Part shown: positions 311 through 44,062 of the stretch, in pieces
Position numbering within the stretch: the first letter of the stretch is position 1
Layout of the letters: each line of letters opens with the position of its first letter
Assembly: GCF_028641065.1 (NCBI RefSeq)
Contig: NC_073397.1
Location: 37,820,001-37,884,000, forward strand
Length of the DNA stretch: 64,000 nucleotides
From: Leucoraja erinacea
Taxonomy: Eukaryota
Direction of reading: 5' to 3'
The notes under the pieces: generated by a model
Databases searched by the model: none
Told to the model about the DNA's origin: nothing
Seen by the model: the letters and a program-made list of their open reading frames with translations, nothing else
Program-made: the position numbers and the translations under genes

Positions 311-3300
311 ACTGGAGGCCGGGCTTGAGAAGATTATTTCTGTGTCGGTCACAGGTTAATGACATTGTCATCTACTTGGCTAATGTCTTGAGTCCAGAAT
401 ATCAAGTCAGTTTGTCAACGTTAACCTCCAATGCTAAAGTGACAATGATTTATGAAAAGCCTCTCGAGGTTTCAGTCTTGAAGCCGAGTTCTAACAAGCT
501 GCTGCGAACATTATCCAATGGAGAGGAATTGTTGGCAAAGTGGAGATGACCCTCTGTACGTTCTGCCGTGGGTTGTGAGTGAGTGAGTGAGTGAGGTGGG
601 TGGCGTGGGCCAAGACTGAGACCACATGGATGTACTGGCCATGGTCTGTGACGCTGGCAGCCAGCATCCCTACAGGATGTCCTCAGTAGATGGGAAGTGG
701 AGAGAAGATCTTGGGAATGGGAGAGTAACGTTGACTGTTGAGAGAATGAGGAAGCACGGGAGTGACCGGTGGAGAAACAGAGAGGCTCGTGTCACCGCCT
801 GGAGGTCACAGGTCAACGCAACGNNNNNNNNNNNNNNNNNNNNNNNNNNNNNNNNNNNNNNNNNNNNNNNNNNNNNNNNNNNNNNNNNNNNNNNNNNNNN
901 NNNNNNNNNNNNNNNNNNNNNNNAGCCAGATGTATTTGAGAGATGCTGTTCCTAGTGTGACCTCATCTACCTCATACTGAGACAGCCAAGCCCAGAACCA
1001 GACAGAGATCCACATACCCAACATCATCTGCTGTGGCAAGAGTTGGCGTCGCCCGCATTCACTGCCTTCAATGTTTTTTTCAGGACATTTGTGACAGATG
1101 TCCAGTTGAAGCGGTCTTGACGTTTGAATATACATAGGCTGCCCAGTTTACCCACACAGAAATGCTGCCTGACCCGCGAGGTCACCTAGAGTTTGCACGT
1201 GTTTACTCCAGCACTCTGTGGAAACGGTCACCATTTATCAATGTTTCTCCACAGATGCTTATGCAATCTGACCCGGCTGAGTCTGTAGTTACCCAGCACC
1301 TCTTTGAGTGATAAAGGTCGGACATATATCCATGTTATCCCCACAGATGCTGCCTGACCCGCCTGAGTTACTCAAGCACTCTGCTGAAACTGCCAAACCT
1401 ATCCATGTTCTCCACAGATGCTGCTGACCCCGCCTGAGTTACTCAGCATCTGTGTGAAACATAACCTATCATAGTGCTCCACAGATGCCTGTCCTGACCG
1501 CCTGAGTTACTCCAGCCGACTCTGTGTGAAACGTCACCGATCCATGTTCTACACAGATGCTGCAGGACCTGCTTGAGTTACCCAGAACCACTCATGTGAA
1601 ACAGTTCACCTAATACAGCTCTCTCCACAGATGCCTGCATGACCGCTGAGTATATTGCTGCGCAGCATCTAGCGAGTATAAGGCAACTAGGCAACTTTTC
1701 GGCGACCGAAGATCCTTCGGAAATAGCAACAGTTTCGCGGCCCGAAACCCTACGGGTTCGCAGACCGAAACGTGTTACCTATTCCTTACCTACATAGATG
1801 CTGCTGACCCGGTGAGTTACTGGAGCACATGATGACTTTTTAAACAAAGGTTAATTCTCACTGAATTAGCACAGGAGAATAGCAATGATGTATTGAAATG
1901 AGCTCGATCGAGTGTGGCCTCAATTCCACCAGGAATGAATCTTGTATATTGACGAATATTCATTGGACTGAATTTGGGCATTTAATTATCTTGGCGTGAA
2001 TGTTCACAGTCTCTCCCTGCCACTCCCCCTGCCTTTACCAATTACGTTTTTAGGTTTTGAGACAATAATTTCAGCATTTTCATGTGCCAATATAATTTAT
2101 CCATGCCCTCCTGTTTCCCCATCTTAGTCTGGGAGCGCCATGGCCAACCTTGATTCAGCCCTGCCACGATAATAATCACAAGAGCCCACTTGTGTTCCTT
2201 TTCACAAACTGGAATCCTACTCGGAGTAGTACAGAGAGGCAAGCTGATTGCCATGCGGTTGGTCCAAGAATAATTCATTGCCACCATTTATATTACCACA
2301 TGCCACTGAACATCTTGGAATCTCATTAGGATGTGGACAGACAGGTGTGTGTCTGTGGTGTGTGTGAGGAATTATGCGAGGGGCTTTATTCTGCGTACAC
2401 GTGCTGTGTGAGTGGATGAGATGGATGGAGTTATCCAGCTACACCGTGTGATGTGTGGAGGGAAGTCAGTTTGGGCGGGAAGGCATACAGAAGCTACATG
2501 GTTGTGTGTGGGACTGCGATATGCGCCAGTTTATCGACGTACCGTCGTGAGTGGGTGGACTGGTACGGGTTATCTGAAGTACACGTTGGTGGGGACTGGG
2601 TGGACTGGGACGGGGTTATCGAGTACACGCGTGTGTGTTGGACCGACGGAGACAGGGTTTTATACGAGATTACACGCGGATGTGTAGGGTGCTAGGCGAC
2701 GGGATGAGAGCTTCATCAAGGAGCCCTGCTGCAGCACGTGTGTGCCTGTTGATGGTGTGTCGTGTGCGGCGCGTGCTTATCTAGGAGCTGCTGCATGCAC
2801 ACTGTGCTGTAGCCCCCCGTCCCCCCCCATGTTGTTTGTGACTGCGTGTGAGGCGAGGTTCTATCAGGAGACTGATACGCCACACGTTCTGTTGTGCTAC
2901 GTTGTGGGCCTGGGTTTATCAAGGGAGTGCATACACACGTAGTGCTGGGTGTGGCGGAGCGGCTTATCAAGCGATGCTGTAGCAGCACGTGTGGTGGCCG
3001 TGTGTGTAGTGCTGGGACAAACAACAGCACGTCTCTCGCAATGCGTAAGAATTGACAGCCCCCACCTGCCACTCACCCGCTTCACTCGAATACTGTTAAT
3101 TCAGGGAATAATTAGCATGTCCTTTTGCATGCAGTAAAAAATCAATTGTTGCTGAATAATGAGGGTTTAATGCCGCGAATTTGATATTATAAGTCATCAG
3201 CGCCATGGATTAGATTTAAGTGGCGATGCCAGAATTCTGCTGAGCAATGATTACAATTTGTTTGCAAAAATACGCAAAATAAAATTCAATGAATATTAAA

Positions 3301-12432: not shown

Positions 12433-12915
12433 TGTGTAGGAAGGAACTGCGGATGCTGGTTTAAACTGAAGATAGATACAAAATGCTGGAGTAACTCAGC
12501 GGGACAGGCAGCATCTCTGGAGAGAAGGAATGGGTGACGTTTTGGGTCGAGACCCGAGGGTCTGAAGAAGAGTCTCGACCTGAAACGTCACCCATTCCCT
12601 CTGTCTACAGACACTGCCTGACCCGCAGAGTTACTCCAGCACTCTGTGAAACGTTACCTATCCATGTTCTCCACTGATGCTGCCTGACCCGCTGAGTTAC
12701 TCCAGCACTCTGTGAACCGTCACCTATCCGTGTTCTCCACAGATGCTGCCGGACCCGCTGAGTTTCTCCAGCACTCTGTGAAACGTCACCTATCCATGTT
12801 CTCCACAGATGCTGCCTGACCCGCTGAGTTACTCCAGCACTCTGTGAATCGTCACCTATCCATGTTCTCCACTGATGCTGCCTGACCCGCTGAGTTACTC
12901 CAGCAGTCTGTGTCT
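12433..12915. mobile_element. Penelope-tail foldback (inverted copies meeting at the hammerhead motif) followed by a 66-bp tandem array
   Basis: Minus copy 12433-12552, junction gggtcgagacccgagggtctgaagaag, then plus copy and about 4 further units of gaaacgtcacctatccatgttctccacagatgctgcctgacccgctgagttactccagcactctgt. Confidence 0.85.
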
Positions 12916-15900
12916 ATCTCCAAGTTTAAGATTCAGATTCAAGATTCAGATTCAGATTTCAGATAAGGAACTTGTTCTCTTGTCTTTCTGTGAAGCCGGC
13001 TGCTGTCTCTATTCTCTCAAGCCCCACCCTAGGGTAAATGCAGAACTGAACTCTGTAACGCAGCTGAACCAAAATAGACCAAACTGTTGTGGAAAGCACA
13101 AAGGCGTGACTGGCCGACAGTTCAGCTGGAGCTGGCTGAATAAGGCACAGGTTTAAATAGCCTCTTGTGCAAGTCCCACTGAGGTCCAAGAAGGAACTGC
13201 AGATGCTGGAAAATCAAAGGTAGACAAATGTACTGGAGAAACTCAGCGGGTGCGGCAACATCTATGGAGCGAAGGAAATAGGCAACGTTTCGGGGCCGAA
13301 ATCCTTATGGAAATAGGCAACGTTTCAGGCCGAAACCCTTCCGGGTTTCGGCCCGAAACGTTGCCTATTTCCTTAGCTCCACAGATGCTGCCTGACCCGC
13401 TGAGTTACTCCAGCACTCTGTGAAACGTCACCTATCCATGTTCTCCACAGATGCTGCCTGACCCGCTGAGTTACTCCAGCACTCTGTGTCTGTCTTCGTT
13501 CATTCTCAGTTAGTGGGTAGTCAATCGCAAGTTCAAACCCGGGTCGACTCGGTCTCAAATCACCTTGCCTTGGTCGCTTGTGGATGCACCAGGCCCCATC
13601 CTCGACTGAGACGGGGGGGGGGGGGGGGGGGGGGATATAAAATATACCCTTCTTCACATTGAGGTCCTATGTTAGTGGCAGTCACTACTGCATCAGCTGT
13701 GGCATTGTCCTATTCACATTGGTTAAAGTCTGTGGCCACAAATGGAACTGAAATGACCAAGAGCTGATCCATCTTCCCAACTGGGCATCTGCAGTGACAG
13801 TTACTCCACTGGACCAGGGAGCTTGTACTTGTCCAACATCATGTCTGGTTTCTGTCAATAACAATAGGTGCAGGAATAGGCCATTCGGCTCTTCGAGCCA
13901 GCACCACCATGGCTGATCATCCCCGTTCCTGCCTTCTCCCCATATCCCCATTACTTGGCTTTGAAAAGTCTGTAGAGGATTGTGTTCCTCTACGTTTCAA
14001 TATTACTGGCAGGCAGAATATGTGAATGGACAGCTTTATCCAGCAACAGCAACGAGAATCATTGGCACAGCATTTTCCTGGGATATGTGAGGGGATTGTT
14101 TCCAAGAACTGAATAACCTATTGAATCTTTCACCATGACAATGTCGATTGGATGAGTCATTGATGTGACTTTACACATGAATTAATAGTGGTGCGGACTG
14201 CAGGAGTTGTACACTTGGCCTGTGATTGTGTGAAGCAGATCAGTGTTGATCCAATGCCTGTTGTATCTGTGTGTGAGCGTCACTCTGAGAGTGTTACTCC
14301 CGTTCCCACTTACAGATTATATATATATATATATATGATAGAAGATAGACACACAATGCTGGAGTAACTCAGCAGGATAGGCAGCATCTCTGGAGAGAAG
14401 GAATAGGTGATGTTTCAGTCTGATCGAGCCCTTCTCGACCCGAAACGTCACCCATTCCTTCTCTCCAGAGATGCTGCCTGTCCTGCTGAGTTACTCCAGC
14501 ATTTTGTGTCTATCTTTGGTTTAAACCAGCATCCTTTTTCGTTAGTTTAAATATTCTGTTGTGCTGCTGCTTTGCAGAATAATGAAAGGCCTGGATAGAG
14601 TGGATGTGGAGAGGATGTCTCCACTAGTGGGAGAGTCTATGACCAGAGGTCAGAGCCTCAGAATTAAAGGACGTTCCTTTAGGAAGGAGATGAGGAGAAA
14701 TTTCTTAAGGCAGAGGGTGGTGAATCTGTGGAATTCTTTGCCACAGACGGCTGTGGAGGCCACAAGTCAGTGGGTATTTTTAAGGCAGAGATAGATTCTT
14801 GATTAGTGCGGGTGTCAGGGGTTATGGGGAGAAGGCAGGCGAATGGGGTTAGGAGGGAGAGATAGAACAGCCATGATTGAATGGTGGAGTAGACTTGATG
14901 GGCCGAATGGCCTAATTCTGCTCCTATCACTTAGAAAGTAAGAATGCCATTGTTCTATCTGGGACACTCTTGACAACATGAACATTGTTGTTGGGGGGAG
15001 TTGGTCATCTCCAGACCAGCACACAGTTGCTCAAACATTTACTCCATTCTGCCGGAAACGTCACCTACTCCTTTTCTCCCAAGATGCTGCCGTACCCGCT
15101 GAGTTTCTGCAGCATTTTTTGTTTCTGCACCATGTTCACTTTAGTTTTTCACTGGCGGTTATCATTTGTGTTTGCAATGTGATAAACCTAGTGGCCAGAA
15201 CCAGTTGCTGGTGCCTGGTGGAGCCGTTGGTTCCTTTGTGCCTCCAGGGCTGGTATTTGGAGCTGGTTCACCTTCACGGTATATGGTGCTTTGTTAGTAA
15301 CGCAGGGCTGGGTCATTCTGCCTGGGAGTTTTCACAGAGCTGACCCCTGTATGTCTGCACACTGGTGCTCACTTTCCCCACCAATTCAGTCGCCATGCTT
15401 GTTTATATTGTGTGTCAGTGGACAGAATAACCACAACAGTTTGACGTGATCAAGCAGCCCTGCCCCCCTCAGTCACGTGTGTGTTGGAAGTTTCAATAGA
15501 GCATGTGAGTTGGTGACGCACATTAGATAATTACCTCTCTGAGCCGTATATTTGGTCCTGACCATGGGTGTTGTTTGTGTGGAGTTTGCACGTTGCCCCT
15601 GCCTCTTCTGGTTTCACCCCCACATCCTCAACACATGCTGATTTGGGAGATTAGTTACGTCTTGTCCATTATCCCCGGCATTGGGATGAAATTATGGGAG
15701 AGAAATAAGTGGAGATGTAGGATTGTGGGAGAGCCAGCATCAGATCGAGGGGCAGAGTGGCTGCACTATGAAAGGGGAATGATAATTGTAGTATATTGTC
15801 ACGTGTAACGAGGTGCAGTGACCAGCTTTAGTTGCGCGCTAACCAGTCAGCGGAAAGATAACACATGGTTACAATCGAGCCGTGTATAAGGGAGGAGTAG

Positions 15901-19450: not shown

Positions 19451-20570
19451 TTAGGGGTAGTGTTGGGGGTGAATGTGATTGGGGCAGTGTCGGGGGTGAG
19501 TGTGAGCAGGATTAGTGTCAGGAACCATGCACACCACTGATCCCCTTGGGTGAGCGTGTGATGTGGGCATTGTTGGCTAGTTGTGGACAGAGTGGTGTGA
19601 GCTGCTGACCTGGGCACATCGCAGCGTGGACACTCCAGTTGTGCCAGGATATTCACTCTGCACCATGGCTGTGCACACACCTGTCATCACACACCTGTGA
19701 TCACTCACCAGTCAGTGAACACACACGCCTCAGTGAACACACATATCTGTGAACACACACGCCTCAGTGAACACGCACGCTGGTGTGAACACACGCCTCA
19801 GTGAACATGCACGCTGGTGTGAACACACGCCTCAGTGAACACACATATCTGTGAGCACACACGCCTCCGTGAACACAAACAGATTTGTGACCATGCACTC
19901 GTGTAAACGCCACGCCCGTGTAGACATCCCCCCCCCCCAATACTAGTGTGATCTGGTCAACATTATCATTGGGAGATTTTCTGCAGAATACCAAATTTGT
20001 AAATATGTATGATGCTTATAGTTGTCACAGCTTTAATATATTTTAAATTAAAGTGTTATTTCTAAGAAATGTGAAATCCTAAAATATCTCAATCAAATCT
20101 TTTAGACACAGGGAACTGCAGATGCTGTTTAATTAAAAAAAAGACACAAGGTGCTGGAGTAACTCAGTGGGTCAAGCAGCATCCCTGACCCGCTGAGTTA
20201 CTCCAGCACTCTGTGAAACGTCACCTATCCATGTACTCCACAGATGCTGCCTGACCCGCTGAGTTACTCCAGCACTGTGTGGTCAGTCTAGTAGGGCAGT
20301 GTAGCAGTATAACTGGAGCCTGGTCACTGATGGTCCAAGTCACCATCTGGAGGCGGTAGAATCACGTCACCGTTTTGTGTCCTGCTGGACAGAGTCAAGT
20401 GTTGGGGTCGGGGAGAGGTCACTGCACTGGTCTCTGCTCTGGCCCAGAGTTATGTCTGGAGTTAACGGCTGCTCTGCCTGCCCTCCCGTCTTGTGGTTCC
20501 TCAGTTACCGCGACCGGCTGTTTGACCTTCGATTCCAGCAATGGTGGGGGGGGTGGGGTGGGGGGGAACA

Positions 20571-38796: not shown

Positions 38797-39745
38797 TGTG
38801 TAGGAAGGAACTGCAGATGCTGGTTTACACTGAAGACAGGCACAAAATGCTGGAGTAACTCAGCGGGACAGGCAGCATCTCTGGAGAGAAGGAATGGGTG
38901 ATGTTTCGGGTCGAGACCCATCTTCTGACTGATGTCGGGGCAGTGGGTGGGACAGAGATGGAATGTAGTCGGAGACAGTAAGACTGGCGGGATAACTGGG
39001 AAGGGGATGGAGAGAGAGGGAAAGCAAGGGCTAACTGAAGTTAGAGAAGTCAATGTTCATACCGCTGGGGTGTAAGCTGCCCAAGCGAAATATGAGGTGC
39101 TGTTCCTCCAATTTGCATTGGGCCTCACTCTGACAATGGAGGAGGCCCAGGACAGAAAGGTCAGTGTGGGAATGGGAGGGGGAGTTGAAATGCTGAGCCA
39201 CCGGGAGATCAGGTAGGTTAAGGCGGACTGAGCGGAGGTGTTCAGCAAAACGATCGCCGAGCCTGCACTTGGTCTCGTCGATGTTGAGAAGTTGACACCT
39301 GGAACAGCGGATACAGTAGATGAGGTTGGAGGAGGTGCAGGTGAACCTCTGCCTCACCTGAAAAGACTGTTGGGTCCTTGGATGGAGTCGAGGGGGGAGG
39401 TAAAGGGACAGGTGTTGCATCTCCTGTTGTTGCAGGGGAAAGTACCTGGGGAGGGGGTGGTTTGGGTGGGAAGGGACAAATTGACCAGGGAGTTACGGAA
39501 GGAATGGTCTCTGTGGAAAGCAGAAAGAGGTGGAGATGGGGAGATGTGGCCAGTGGTGGGATCCCGTTGGAGGAGGTGAAAGTGTTGGATGATTATATGG
39601 TGTATGTGACGGCTGGTGGGGTGGAAGGAGAGGACAAGGGGGGCTCTGTCCTTGTTACGCATGGAGGGAGGGGGAGCTGCGGGATATCGAGGAGACCCTA
39701 GTGAGAGCCTCATGTATAATGGAAGAGGGGAACCCCCGTTCCCTA
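38797..39745 (-). mobile_element. Penelope-like element, GIY-YIG endonuclease region plus 3' tail (degenerate)
   Basis: Minus ORFs ...PGTFPCNNRRCNTCP and FTCTSSNLIYCIRCSRCQLLNIDETKCRLGDRFAEHL...VAQHFN...EQHLIFRLGSLHPSGMNIDF, frameshifted. Followed by the tail shared with many short copies. Confidence 0.9.
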
Positions 39746-41712: not shown

Positions 41713-42232
41713 CACAGATGCTGCCTGACCCGCTGAGTTACTCCAGCACTCTGTGAAACGTCACCTATCCATGTTCTCCACAGATGCTGCCTGACCCGCT
41801 GAGTTACTCCAGCACTCTGTGAAACGTCACCTATCCATGTTCTCCACAGATGCTGCCTGACCCGCTGAGTTACTCCAGCACTTTGTGAAACGTCACCTAT
41901 CCATGTTCTCAACAGATGCTGCCTGACCCGCTGAGTTACTCCAGCACTCTGTGAAACGTCACCAATGCATGTTCTCAACAGATGCTGCCTGACCCGCTGA
42001 GTTATGGTGCAGCAGCATCTATGGAGCGAAGGAAATAGGCAACGTTTCGGGGCCGAAATCCTTATGGAAATAGGCAACGTTTCAGGCCGAAACCCTTCCG
42101 GGTTTCGGCCTGAAACGTTGCCTATTTCCTTAGCTCCATAGATGCTGCTGTACCCGCTGAGTTACTCCAGCACTCTGTGAAACGTCACCTATCCATGTTC
42201 TCCACAGATGCTGCCTGACCCGCTGAGTTACT
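41713..42232 (+). repeat. 66-bp Penelope-tail array with embedded foldback module
   Basis: Period 66 (gaaacg at 41755, 41821, 41887, 41953); inverted module ...aacgtttcaggccgaaacccttccgggtttcggcctgaaacgttg. Confidence 0.9.
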
Positions 42233-44062
42233 CTTTGCCACCAGACTCTCTGCCATCTGTGTACTGAGCCTGCACACTACAAGTTTGATTTCCTGCAGAT
42301 TAATCACAGTGGACTGAAAGCTGATGTATATTTGGGGCAATTTAAGATTGCGTGAGGTTAAATCCTTCCTGGCCCGAGAAAAATTGATCACAACTTTGAA
42401 GATAGTGCAGTGGGAAAGTTGAAGTGGTGAAAGTGAGATATTTAATGTACTTCTGCTATTTCCGACACACAAGCTCCCAGAGACTCTGGAATGATCTGTG
42501 GAGTCCTAGTGTGTCCATAGAGCAGGGGTGGGCAACCTTGTTCTGCAACAAGGGGCCAGGACGCATGTGTGTGAGGTCGGTTCAAGAACCTGATGGTTAT
42601 GGGCAAGTAGCTCATAAGGTGACAGGGGTAGAATTAGGCCATTCGGCCCATCAAGTCTACTCCACCATTCAATCATGGCTGATCTATCTCTCCCTCCTAA
42701 CTCCATTCTCCTGCCTTCTCCCCATAACCCCTGAAGCCCGTACTAATTAGGAATCTATCTATCTCTGCCTTAAATATATCCACTGACTTGTGGCCTCCAC
42801 AGCCGTCTGTGTGGCAATGAATTCCACAGATTCACCACCCTCTGACTAGAGACATTTTCCCTCACCTCCTTCCTAAAAGACCATCCTTTAATTCTGAGGC
42901 CGTGCCCTCTAGTCCTAGACTCTCCCACTGGTGGAAACATCCTCCTCACATCCACTTTATCCAAGCCTTTCACTGTTCTCTGGCTGTTGCTGTGTGACTG
43001 TAGGCTGCACCTCCTGCCCGACATGGTGAAGCTGAGGCACGACCATCACCGTGGGGGCTGTGTGGTTTGCTGAGCATTGCCAGGAATGTTGCAATATTTC
43101 TACATCTCTATTCTCCCCTCTGCCTTCTGCCTGTACAAACGTCTTCAATTCCAACACAATATTAATTAGCTCACAATGATCTCATTAGCCACCAGACTCA
43201 TGGCAGAGCTGCCTATAACTGTGTAACGTGATCTTTCTCAATCTGCTCTTTTCACGGAGTCTTTAGGCTCTTTAGGCTAAATGGTTCATTATCCCAGTGA
43301 CAAAGGCATGATAATATGACCAGGGTAACGATATATCACTGGGGTGACTCCATAATTAGTTGTTGGGTGATTAATGTGTCTATACTGTGGGATGTGTCTG
43401 CTGATCTCCCACCCCCCACCCCTCCCCCACATCTACTGTACCTGCCCGCTCTGAGTAAGGTCGTGGATGTGGGGTTTGGGCTCTGGGTCTACAATGAGAC
43501 ATGGAGACTGTACCTTCTCCACCACTGTCACCACCCCAGCCATGGCTCTGCTGTTGTCTAATTACTAGAGACAGGCTGCAATAATGAATCCGATGCTTCC
43601 ATTCACCCACCAGCAGGATGAAGAGAGAGCAAAGGGACTTTGATCTTCCCACTGTCGACGTTTCTCACATTCATGCCTTCATTTTGCAACCAACCCTCAG
43701 GCCTCTCTGTAATCTTGTTTAAGAAGGAACTGCAGATGCTGGAAAATCGAAGGTAGACAAAAATGCTGGAGAAACTCAGCGGGTGCAGCAGCATCTATGG
43801 AGCGAAGGAAATAGCCGAAACCCTTCTTCAGACTGAGTTTCTCCAGCGGTTTTGTACCCTCTCTGTGAGTTTGCCCTTCATTCAAATCTTCTCGGATTTA
43901 CCGAATATATTCAGGGTGAATGATGGACAAGACAGTGTCCGGGCAGGGGATAGGTCGGCCGTGTGCTGGCTCTCTCTGTACCACATATCCACAGATCCCA
44001 CACGTGGATCGGGGCATTTCAAATTTCACATTTCTTTGCGCAGATTAAACACTTGTGGTTTG

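What the first reader, a model, noticed from the sequence alone, without database searches (positions are those of the whole stretch)
41713..42232. Dispersed 66-bp tandem arrays share one junction next to the ribozyme cleavage triplet: retrozyme-like spread
Seen: the same unit and the same junction (ccagcactctgtg|aaacgtcacc) recur at about 1150-1640, 12610-12910, 13380-13490, 20185-20280, 41713-42232, 54940-55240 and 59287-59550(-). The unit starts at the GAAAC-GTC half of the hammerhead and lacks the CTGANGA half. Independent slippage would not be expected to give an identical junction seven times. Inference: the multimer is itself mobilised, for example by Penelope RT copying a multimeric or circular RNA, or by repeated template jumps. 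This resembles retrozymes but with a much smaller unit, and may be undescribed in elasmobranchs.
Basis: partly seen in the sequence, partly recalled or inferred. Interest (0 to 1): 0.7.

Follow-up and report, generated by a model that had tools for sequence, protein, structure and literature searches.

The report
Penelope-tail minisatellite colonising chromosome ends
A 66-letter piece of a jumping gene's end sits in short tandem runs with one shared seam at thousands of sites near chromosome ends, and it likely spread by repair-type copying into older copies of the same jumping gene nearby, not as a self-cutting circular RNA.

Summary
The arrays are real. The junction occurs 18 times in the window and 18,764 times genome-wide. 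The unit is the tail of a Penelope-like element's pseudo-LTR and has no CTGANGA half, so it fails the retrozyme definition. The junction arose once: only 17 equivalents exist on the dominant tail subtype.

Ordinary tails are spread evenly, but 49 of 54 sampled junctions lie within 6 Mb of a contig end. Arrays sit inside older resident tails of several subfamilies, chimeric at both ends. A second passenger has 62 of 94 copies in 4 Mb of one contig and is also pasted into residents without the donor's tail end.

Best reading: a TE-derived subtelomeric minisatellite spread by ectopic DNA-level conversion (0.65); local RNA-templated homing is not excluded.

The parts
41713..42004 (+). 4.4 head-to-tail 66-bp units of a Penelope-like pLTR tail; junctions at 41754/5, 41820/1, 41886/7, 41952/3; begins mid-unit with no hammerhead head
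42005..42111 (+). Passenger 'B block': inverted piece of another tail subfamily with a 35-bp internal duplication; identical entry junction 2,000 times genome-wide
42066..42129 (.). Perfect palindrome, 30-bp arms, 4-nt spacer; the spacer is found in both orientations among copies
42112..42233 (+). B/array chimeric unit, fifth junction at 42178/9, last unit cut at phase 55
12562..12912 (+). Resident fold-back copy with intact CTGAAGA...GAAACGTC core and diverged first unit, followed by 4 junctions
13190..13488 (+). Resident inverted B-type copy running into B block and 1.7 units; next 119 bp (13489-13607) shared with 55244-55362 and nowhere else in the genome
20184..20281 (+). 1.5 units behind an inverted resident tail
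54735..55243 (+). Degenerate hammerhead head, one unit, B block, 4 junctions
59294..59577 (-). Degenerate hammerhead head plus 4 units, 3 junctions
1155..1828 (+). Degenerate, indel-rich array plus B block

Best explanation
The arrays are a single-origin minisatellite made from the 66-bp tail of a Penelope-like element, which likely spread by homology-directed DNA repair (ectopic gene conversion) into resident Penelope ends within and between chromosome-end domains. Steps: (1, shown) the unit is the pLTR tail behind a GIY-YIG ORF end, minus the ribozyme's 5' half. (2, inferred) One event joined a tail end to GAAAC of another copy, through 1-2 nt of microhomology or a Penelope self-insertion at the RT start site. 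(3, shown) Arrays now sit inside older residents of several subfamilies, with resident bases on both sides. (4, inferred) A break or nick in a resident tail or fold-back copy is repaired from a nearby donor; out-of-register re-annealing adds units, and anything lying between two homologies in the donor (B and D passengers) is carried along. (5, shown) Arrays then change locally by duplication of sub-blocks. (6, inferred) Confinement to ends reflects high recombination and physical contact there.
For: Single origin: 18,764 junctions on the array subtype versus 17 on the subtype that makes up most ordinary tails. End confinement: 49 of 54 random junctions within 6 Mb of an end (19% of length); 1 junction and 35 other tails in 200 kb of interior versus 64 and 96 in 200 kb beside the window. 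Grafting: resident-type bases in 11-17 of 58 first units at positions 12-27, falling to 0 by position 61; in 23-25 of 130 complete last units at positions 61/63 versus 1-4 of 270 inner units; 44 different stem-II strings among 52 parsed heads, a few spurious; arrays behind a B-type and an old ORF-linked resident. No free young family: a perfect unit behind stem II ends as monomer 36 times and runs into an array 298 times. Locality: B blocks differ 0.048 within versus 0.070 between contigs (58 of 71 blocks); two variants give 92 vs 4 copies on C17-C20 and 1 vs 37 on C1-C16; passenger D has 62 of 94 copies in C18:1.0-4.9 Mb on both strands. No need for the RT start site: of 34 D copies lacking the 5' probe, 16 enter a resident through its antisense arm, and 13 of these 16 revert to resident bases before the tail end. 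A 119-bp unique 3' flank was co-copied once over 42 kb. Palindrome spacers occur flipped.
Against: No recombination map or Hi-C was available; GC at ends is only modestly higher (0.467 vs 0.433). A dense internal domain on C2 (24-29 Mb) has no excess of other minisatellites (2.3% vs 2.1% interior). RNA-templated repair primed inside homology would leave the same chimeric anatomy, and array RNA exists on both strands in a related organism. Most arrays end at the native tail end (110 of 168 at phase 60 or later), as Penelope RT initiation also predicts. 19 of 21 D copies found with the 5' probe keep a downstream tail. The 16 antisense-arm copies could be the source of D rather than its recipients. 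The unit folds as a circular rod better than shuffles, unlike control tails (z -2.4). The 165-168 arrays analysed are not a fully random sample.
Confidence: 0.65

Rival explanations
1. Local RNA-templated homing: read-through RNA carrying tail multimers binds Penelope RT/endonuclease, which nicks nearby resident pLTRs and copies the RNA into them, near the site of transcription.
For: Penelope protein cuts its own ORF-pLTR junction and starts RT internally in a tail stem-loop in vitro (PMC11167929, parts 1-2 read). The unit ends at the native short-tail end and keeps the hairpin. Junction RNA is present in poly(A) reads. Passengers B and D lie upstream of a tail.
Against: Residents exist genome-wide but arrays are confined to ends. 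Variants sort by chromosome end. 13 of 16 antisense-arm patches lack the donor tail end. A 3' flank was co-copied. An intact autonomous partner with this tail was not found in the one family search.
Confidence: 0.2
2. Small circular DNA excised from arrays reintegrates by homology into resident tails near its origin.
For: Proposed beside interlocus conversion for Rsp-like repeats entering 1.688 clusters (PMC7403614 passages). It fits variable unit numbers and passengers flanked by homology.
Against: Circles of a few hundred bp should diffuse, yet D is concentrated in one 4-Mb domain. No eccDNA data were examined.
Confidence: 0.08
3. Retrozyme-like route: an intact hammerhead half cleaves each unit in trans at GUC, 66-nt monomers circularise, and rolling-circle RT makes the arrays.
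For: Each unit holds the substrate half with the palindromic ACGU that lets minimal hammerheads act as dimers (PMC4209133 part 1). 15 of 165 arrays have an intact core upstream. The circular fold gives z -2.4, 5 of 300 shuffles as good.
Against: No CTGANGA in the unit. Only 2 adjacent stem-I pairs by eye; no Rfam hammerhead hit. No variant is shared by all units in 37 arrays with 3 or more inner units (excludes circles from diverged loci only). A 66-nt circle cannot carry the 160-250-bp passengers. Locality as above.
Confidence: 0.05
4. The junction forms repeatedly and independently by RT stalling at stem II or by slippage.
For: A stem-II hairpin lies just upstream of the seam; other one-off tail duplications occur, for example a 31-bp array at 63268-63555.
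Against: 17 versus 18,764 junctions by subtype; inner units are 98% identical to one sequence; identical passenger junctions.
Confidence: 0.02

Closest known systems
Xenopus 52-bp SINE/tRNA-V tail minisatellite of extended subtelomeres (PMC10794172, passages read; lead from note e1-8848157)
   Same: A short piece of a TE 3' tail is expanded only in subtelomeric copies while intact elements are genome-wide; attributed to recombination.
   Different: Here the source is a Penelope pLTR; a single shared seam, grafting into other subfamilies, passengers and end-specific haplotypes are shown. The frog passage reports none of these, and frogs have a recombination map.
Rsp-like repeats invading 1.688 clusters on the Drosophila simulans-clade X (PMC7403614, passages read)
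   Same: One rare junction makes a hybrid that seeds new clusters at loci already holding the homologous repeat; interlocus conversion or eccDNA proposed.
   Different: Recipients here are dispersed single TE ends rather than satellite clusters; the scale is about 10^4 loci over many chromosome ends.
Animal non-LTR retrozymes (bioRxiv 10.64898/2026.07.22.740005 parts 1-3 of 5; PMC7229834 passages)
   Same: pLTR-derived tandem repeats; monomers evenly spread and multimers enriched at chromosome termini in Xenopus; the preprint reports units from 51 bp up.
   Different: Defined by a complete type I hammerhead in consecutive units and, where tested, circRNA; this unit has no CUGANGA half. The preprint's supplements were closed, so I could not see its chondrichthyan families.
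Partial tandems, inverted copies and tails of EN+ Penelope-like elements; multicopy head-to-tail non-autonomous Chlamys such as MRC1 (PMC8557442 passages)
   Same: Source of the unit and of the fold-back residents; the CX2-5CxxC motif before GIY-YIG points to the Neptune/Nematis type.
   Different: Those structures arise per insertion or as free non-autonomous families; a free young family of this unit is almost absent (36 vs 298).

Membership tests
Non-LTR retrozyme | Complete type I hammerhead in at least two consecutive units | tested here: not met
   No CTGANGA in unit or dimer on either strand; no Rfam hit
Non-LTR retrozyme | Head-to-tail tandem repeats, dispersed, related to a pLTR | tested here: met
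Non-LTR retrozyme | Self-cleaved monomeric linear or circular RNA | tested here: inconclusive
   Junction reads on both strands and no start/stop pile-up, but oligo-dT and single-cell libraries of organism A cannot show 66-nt circles
Non-LTR retrozyme | Ribozyme cleavage in vitro | not testable with these tools
   Bench test
Penelope-like pLTR derivative | Sequence lies 3' of a GIY-YIG ORF end with a minimal hammerhead-like core | tested here: met
   29 tails within 420 bp of an ORF-end motif; Pfam GIY-YIG at E 0.002, below cut-off, for one 342-aa frame
Penelope-like pLTR derivative | Duplication is part of the autonomous element's normal end | tested here: not met
   27 of 29 ORF-linked tails are monomers; Dfam/Repbase consensus not available
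TE-derived subtelomeric minisatellite | Tandem expansion of a TE fragment confined to chromosome-end domains while the parent is genome-wide | tested here: met
TE-derived subtelomeric minisatellite | Domains have high meiotic recombination | not testable with these tools
   No map; proxies mixed (GC; other minisatellites)
Repeat spread by interlocus conversion (Rsp-like/1.688 type) | Shared junction; insertion at loci that already held the homologous repeat | tested here: met
   Chimeric first and last units and diverse resident heads; only 58 of 165 arrays keep a recognisable head, against 125 of 293 monomers in the same domains
Repeat spread by interlocus conversion (Rsp-like/1.688 type) | Orthologous empty site carries the resident repeat | not tested
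   No assembled relative was available

The most novel reading that the evidence does not exclude
The array is a selfish 'conversion drive' on a transposon's own ends: a protein-free, ribozyme-free, hairpin-optimised tail multimer that colonises resident Penelope ends faster than it is lost, possibly helped by Penelope endonuclease nicks or by RNA-templated repair in cis, and that ferries palindromic passengers from end to end. The two bases by which the unit differs from interior copies of its parent subtype both tighten the tail hairpin (few copies, post hoc).
Probability: 0.2. Interest if true: 0.75.

Novelty: new variant of a known kind. Interest (0 to 1): 0.5.

Why it matters
About 10^4 marked patches, with passenger variants that sort by chromosome end, form a natural tracer of ectopic exchange within and between chromosome ends in a slowly evolving vertebrate genome that has no recombination map here. 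They make it testable whether contact or distance governs such exchange. The case also warns that pLTR-derived tandems enriched at chromosome termini, the pattern used to call vertebrate retrozymes, can arise with no ribozyme core in the unit.

Tried and rejected
An apparent plus-strand bias on C2 in the listing was a listing artefact. Mid-unit 3' truncation does not separate arrays from monomers (117 of 165 vs 132 of 164 reach the core). The 5' versus 3' flank-sharing test was swamped by passenger blocks and is not used. The first-unit classes were mis-anchored and were redone. Rfam found no hammerhead in the window at gathering score or in three loci at E up to 10. Pfam gave nothing at E 0.001 for the ORF-end frame. 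Run search: no holder on record as RNA was listed. In one search only one listed contig piece (X18 record 9) has 31 or more letters on both sides of the junction; shorter pieces cross it in runs of organisms B, C, E and F. Assembly artefact is rejected for the family because raw reads of organism A carry the junction, though the 1155-1830 copy looks error-rich. Independent stalling or slippage is rejected. Literature: searches listed no paper describing this repeat; subscription journals, Dfam and Repbase were not searchable. The scan look-ups by sequence and near this place were blank.

Full report
Observation. The 66-bp unit and its junction are present as described: 18 junctions within 3 mismatches at six loci, none in 100 shuffles, and a degenerate seventh copy at about 1155-1830. 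The focal locus is composite: 4.4 units (41713-42004), an inverted piece of another tail subfamily with a perfect 64-bp palindrome (42005-42129), then 1.8 units. It has no hammerhead head; the nearest upstream CTGANGA is at 38830. The seam lies about 8 nt upstream of the predicted cleavage site, so it is not itself a ligation scar.

Source of the unit. Among fetched loci, 29 tails lie within 420 bp behind a Penelope-type ORF end. One such frame has a CX2-5CxxC motif before a GIY-YIG motif (Pfam GIY-YIG E 0.002, below cut-off), which PMC8557442 (passages) gives for Neptune and Nematis. The parent ends carry a minimal-hammerhead-like core of the kind described in PMC4209133 (part 1 of 4 read). 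Only two adjacent stem-I pairs are visible and Rfam does not score it, so its activity is unverified. 27 of the 29 ORF-linked tails are monomers, so the duplication is not the element's normal end.

Abundance and single origin. The genome holds 18,764 exact junctions and 7,160 adjacent pairs, so at most about 11,600 runs. Arrays examined held 1-13 junctions (168 arrays). Inner units differ 1.8% from the window's unit, and 98 of 270 are identical. The dominant ordinary tail subtype shows the same seam only 17 times. A perfect unit behind stem II leads into an array 298 times and ends as a monomer 36 times, so no large free family of this subtype exists. Raw reads of organism A carry the junction, and contig pieces cross it in organisms B, C, E and F, one with 31 or more letters on both sides. 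The junction is therefore likely older than those splits.

Distribution. Ordinary tail ends number 36,531 exact copies, with 100 in the first 7.3 Mb of C1, close to the genome mean. A flank-keyed random sample gave 75 junctions. I dropped 15 on small unplaced contigs and 6 on contigs under 12 Mb. Of the remaining 54, 41 lie within 3 Mb and 49 within 6 Mb of an end (10% and 19% of length). One end usually dominates, but both ends carry arrays on C5, C9 and C10, and there are internal domains on C2 and C5. The window is about 0.5 Mb from the end of C21. Twenty interior 10-kb controls held 1 junction and 35 other tails; 200 kb beside the window held 64 and 96. Other minisatellites cover 2.1% of interior controls, 5.1% of sampled ends, 10.6% of the neighbours and 14.8% of the window, but only 2.3% of the C2 domain. 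Higher GC at shark chromosome ends is reported in PMC10620051 (passages); no recombination map was available.

Anatomy. In 165 arrays (partly selected samples), 58 keep a hammerhead 5' half and 15 an intact core. The heads show 44 different stem-II strings among 52 parsed, a few of them spurious matches. First units carry resident-subtype bases in 11-17 of 58 cases at positions 12-27, 5 at position 40 and none at 61. Complete last units carry them in 23-25 of 130 cases at positions 61 and 63, against 1-4 of 270 inner units. The 16 long tails that follow arrays all differ. Two ORF-linked residents, one of the B subfamily, switch into an array inside the shared core. Arrays were thus grafted into many pre-existing copies. 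Later local change is visible: in 37 arrays with 3 or more inner units, 22 variants are shared by a subset of units, 130 are single and none is shared by all.

Passengers as tracers. The B junction occurs 2,000 times. Among 58 near-full blocks of 71, distance is 0.048 within and 0.070 between contigs (permutation p 0.0005; nearest neighbour on the same contig 20.7 times versus 6.5 expected). Two B variants have 157 and 180 copies. On C1-C21, where both 100-row listings are complete, they split 92 vs 4 on C17-C20 and 1 vs 37 on C1-C16 (copies are not independent, so the p-value is descriptive). The palindrome's spacer occurs in both orientations (GGAA 21/TTCC 10, TTAC 9/GTAA 2, TTAT 6/ATAA 2). 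A second passenger, D, has 94 copies: 62 in C18:1.0-4.9 Mb on both strands, 8 on C11, 4 on other large contigs and 20 unplaced. All 21 examined have a tail upstream and 19 downstream. A probe for D's middle gave 117 hits. Of 34 listed hits lacking the 5' probe, 16 enter a resident fold-back copy through its antisense arm, 11 are full or slightly deleted D, and 7 are other. Of the 16, 13 revert to resident bases before the tail end, 2 were scored donor-type (one a false match in a following fragment, by eye) and 1 is uninformative. These patches did not need the donor's RT start site, unless they are D's source rather than recipients. In the window, a 119-bp unique 3' flank is shared only between 13489 and 55244.

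RNA. In two oligo-dT runs of organism A the 66-bp go-back joint is seen on both strands (534/795 and 737/1106 reads; 23/155 in a single-cell run), with no place where many molecules begin or end. This fits read-through transcription and cannot test for small circles. Organism A may not be the window's species. The unit folds as a hairpin, and as a circle it beats 295 of 300 shuffles while three control tails do not. The two bases that separate it from interior copies of its parent subtype both improve pairing (few copies, post hoc). This is unexplained: it could reflect selection on an RNA or DNA hairpin, or template-switch correction.

Mechanism. Shown: pLTR origin, single seam, end confinement, grafting into residents, block transfer, locality. 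Inferred: that transfer is DNA-templated repair, and that recombination and contact explain the geography. I put this at 0.65. Local RNA-templated homing by Penelope protein, which in vitro cuts its own pLTR region and starts RT inside the tail (PMC11167929, parts 1-2 of 4), would give similar chimeras and gets 0.2. Circular DNA gets 0.08, trans-cleaved 66-nt circles 0.05, independent origin 0.02.

Comparison and novelty. It is not a retrozyme by the working definition in bioRxiv 10.64898/2026.07.22.740005 (parts 1-3 of 5; supplements closed) or PMC7229834 (passages). It works like the Xenopus SINE-tail minisatellite (PMC10794172 passages) and like Rsp-like spread into 1.688 clusters (PMC7403614 passages). 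Nine literature searches listed no description of this repeat. An unreviewed note of this scan, e1-8848157, reached the same reading on another piece of this genome. I saw it after recording my own reading and do not count it as support; it supplied the Xenopus lead. Verdict: a real, very abundant, apparently undescribed variant of a known kind; interest 0.5.

Noticed in passing
L224:1560-3836(+), L225 and L226 (ends of C23, C39, C37): The three best GIY-YIG hits are 759-aa open frames with RT and GIY-YIG matches, each within about 4 kb of a contig end and beside variant telomere-like or satellite repeats. They may be an intact, end-associated Penelope-like family; they lack the tail studied here.
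   Followed up: partly
G000 C18:1.0-4.9 Mb (L122, L124, L125, L207-L210, L238-L275): Passenger D includes an intact hammerhead-like core and a long palindrome between two tails, so tail-D-tail repeats look more like a retrozyme unit than the 66-mer does.
   Followed up: partly
G000 C17-C22 versus C5, C11, C24-C28: B-block variants are shared among ends of contigs of similar size rank, which may reflect nuclear neighbourhoods.
   Followed up: partly
G000 C2:24-29 Mb, C5:76 Mb, C9:18.6 Mb: Internal array-bearing domains; the C2 domain shows no B junction in 167 kb. They may be old chromosome ends at fusion sites.
   Followed up: no
window 63232-63563: A separate 31-bp minisatellite (9.3 copies) derived from the same tail behind a hammerhead-like head, with its own one-off junction.
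   Followed up: no
window 1050-1900: Indel-rich copy of the array plus B block next to an N stretch; looks like low-accuracy sequence.
   Followed up: no
whole window: About 15% of the window is other minisatellite with period 10 or more.
   Followed up: partly
G000 C18:988834-988999: The 35-bp repeat inside the B block is itself expanded to five copies at one locus.
   Followed up: no
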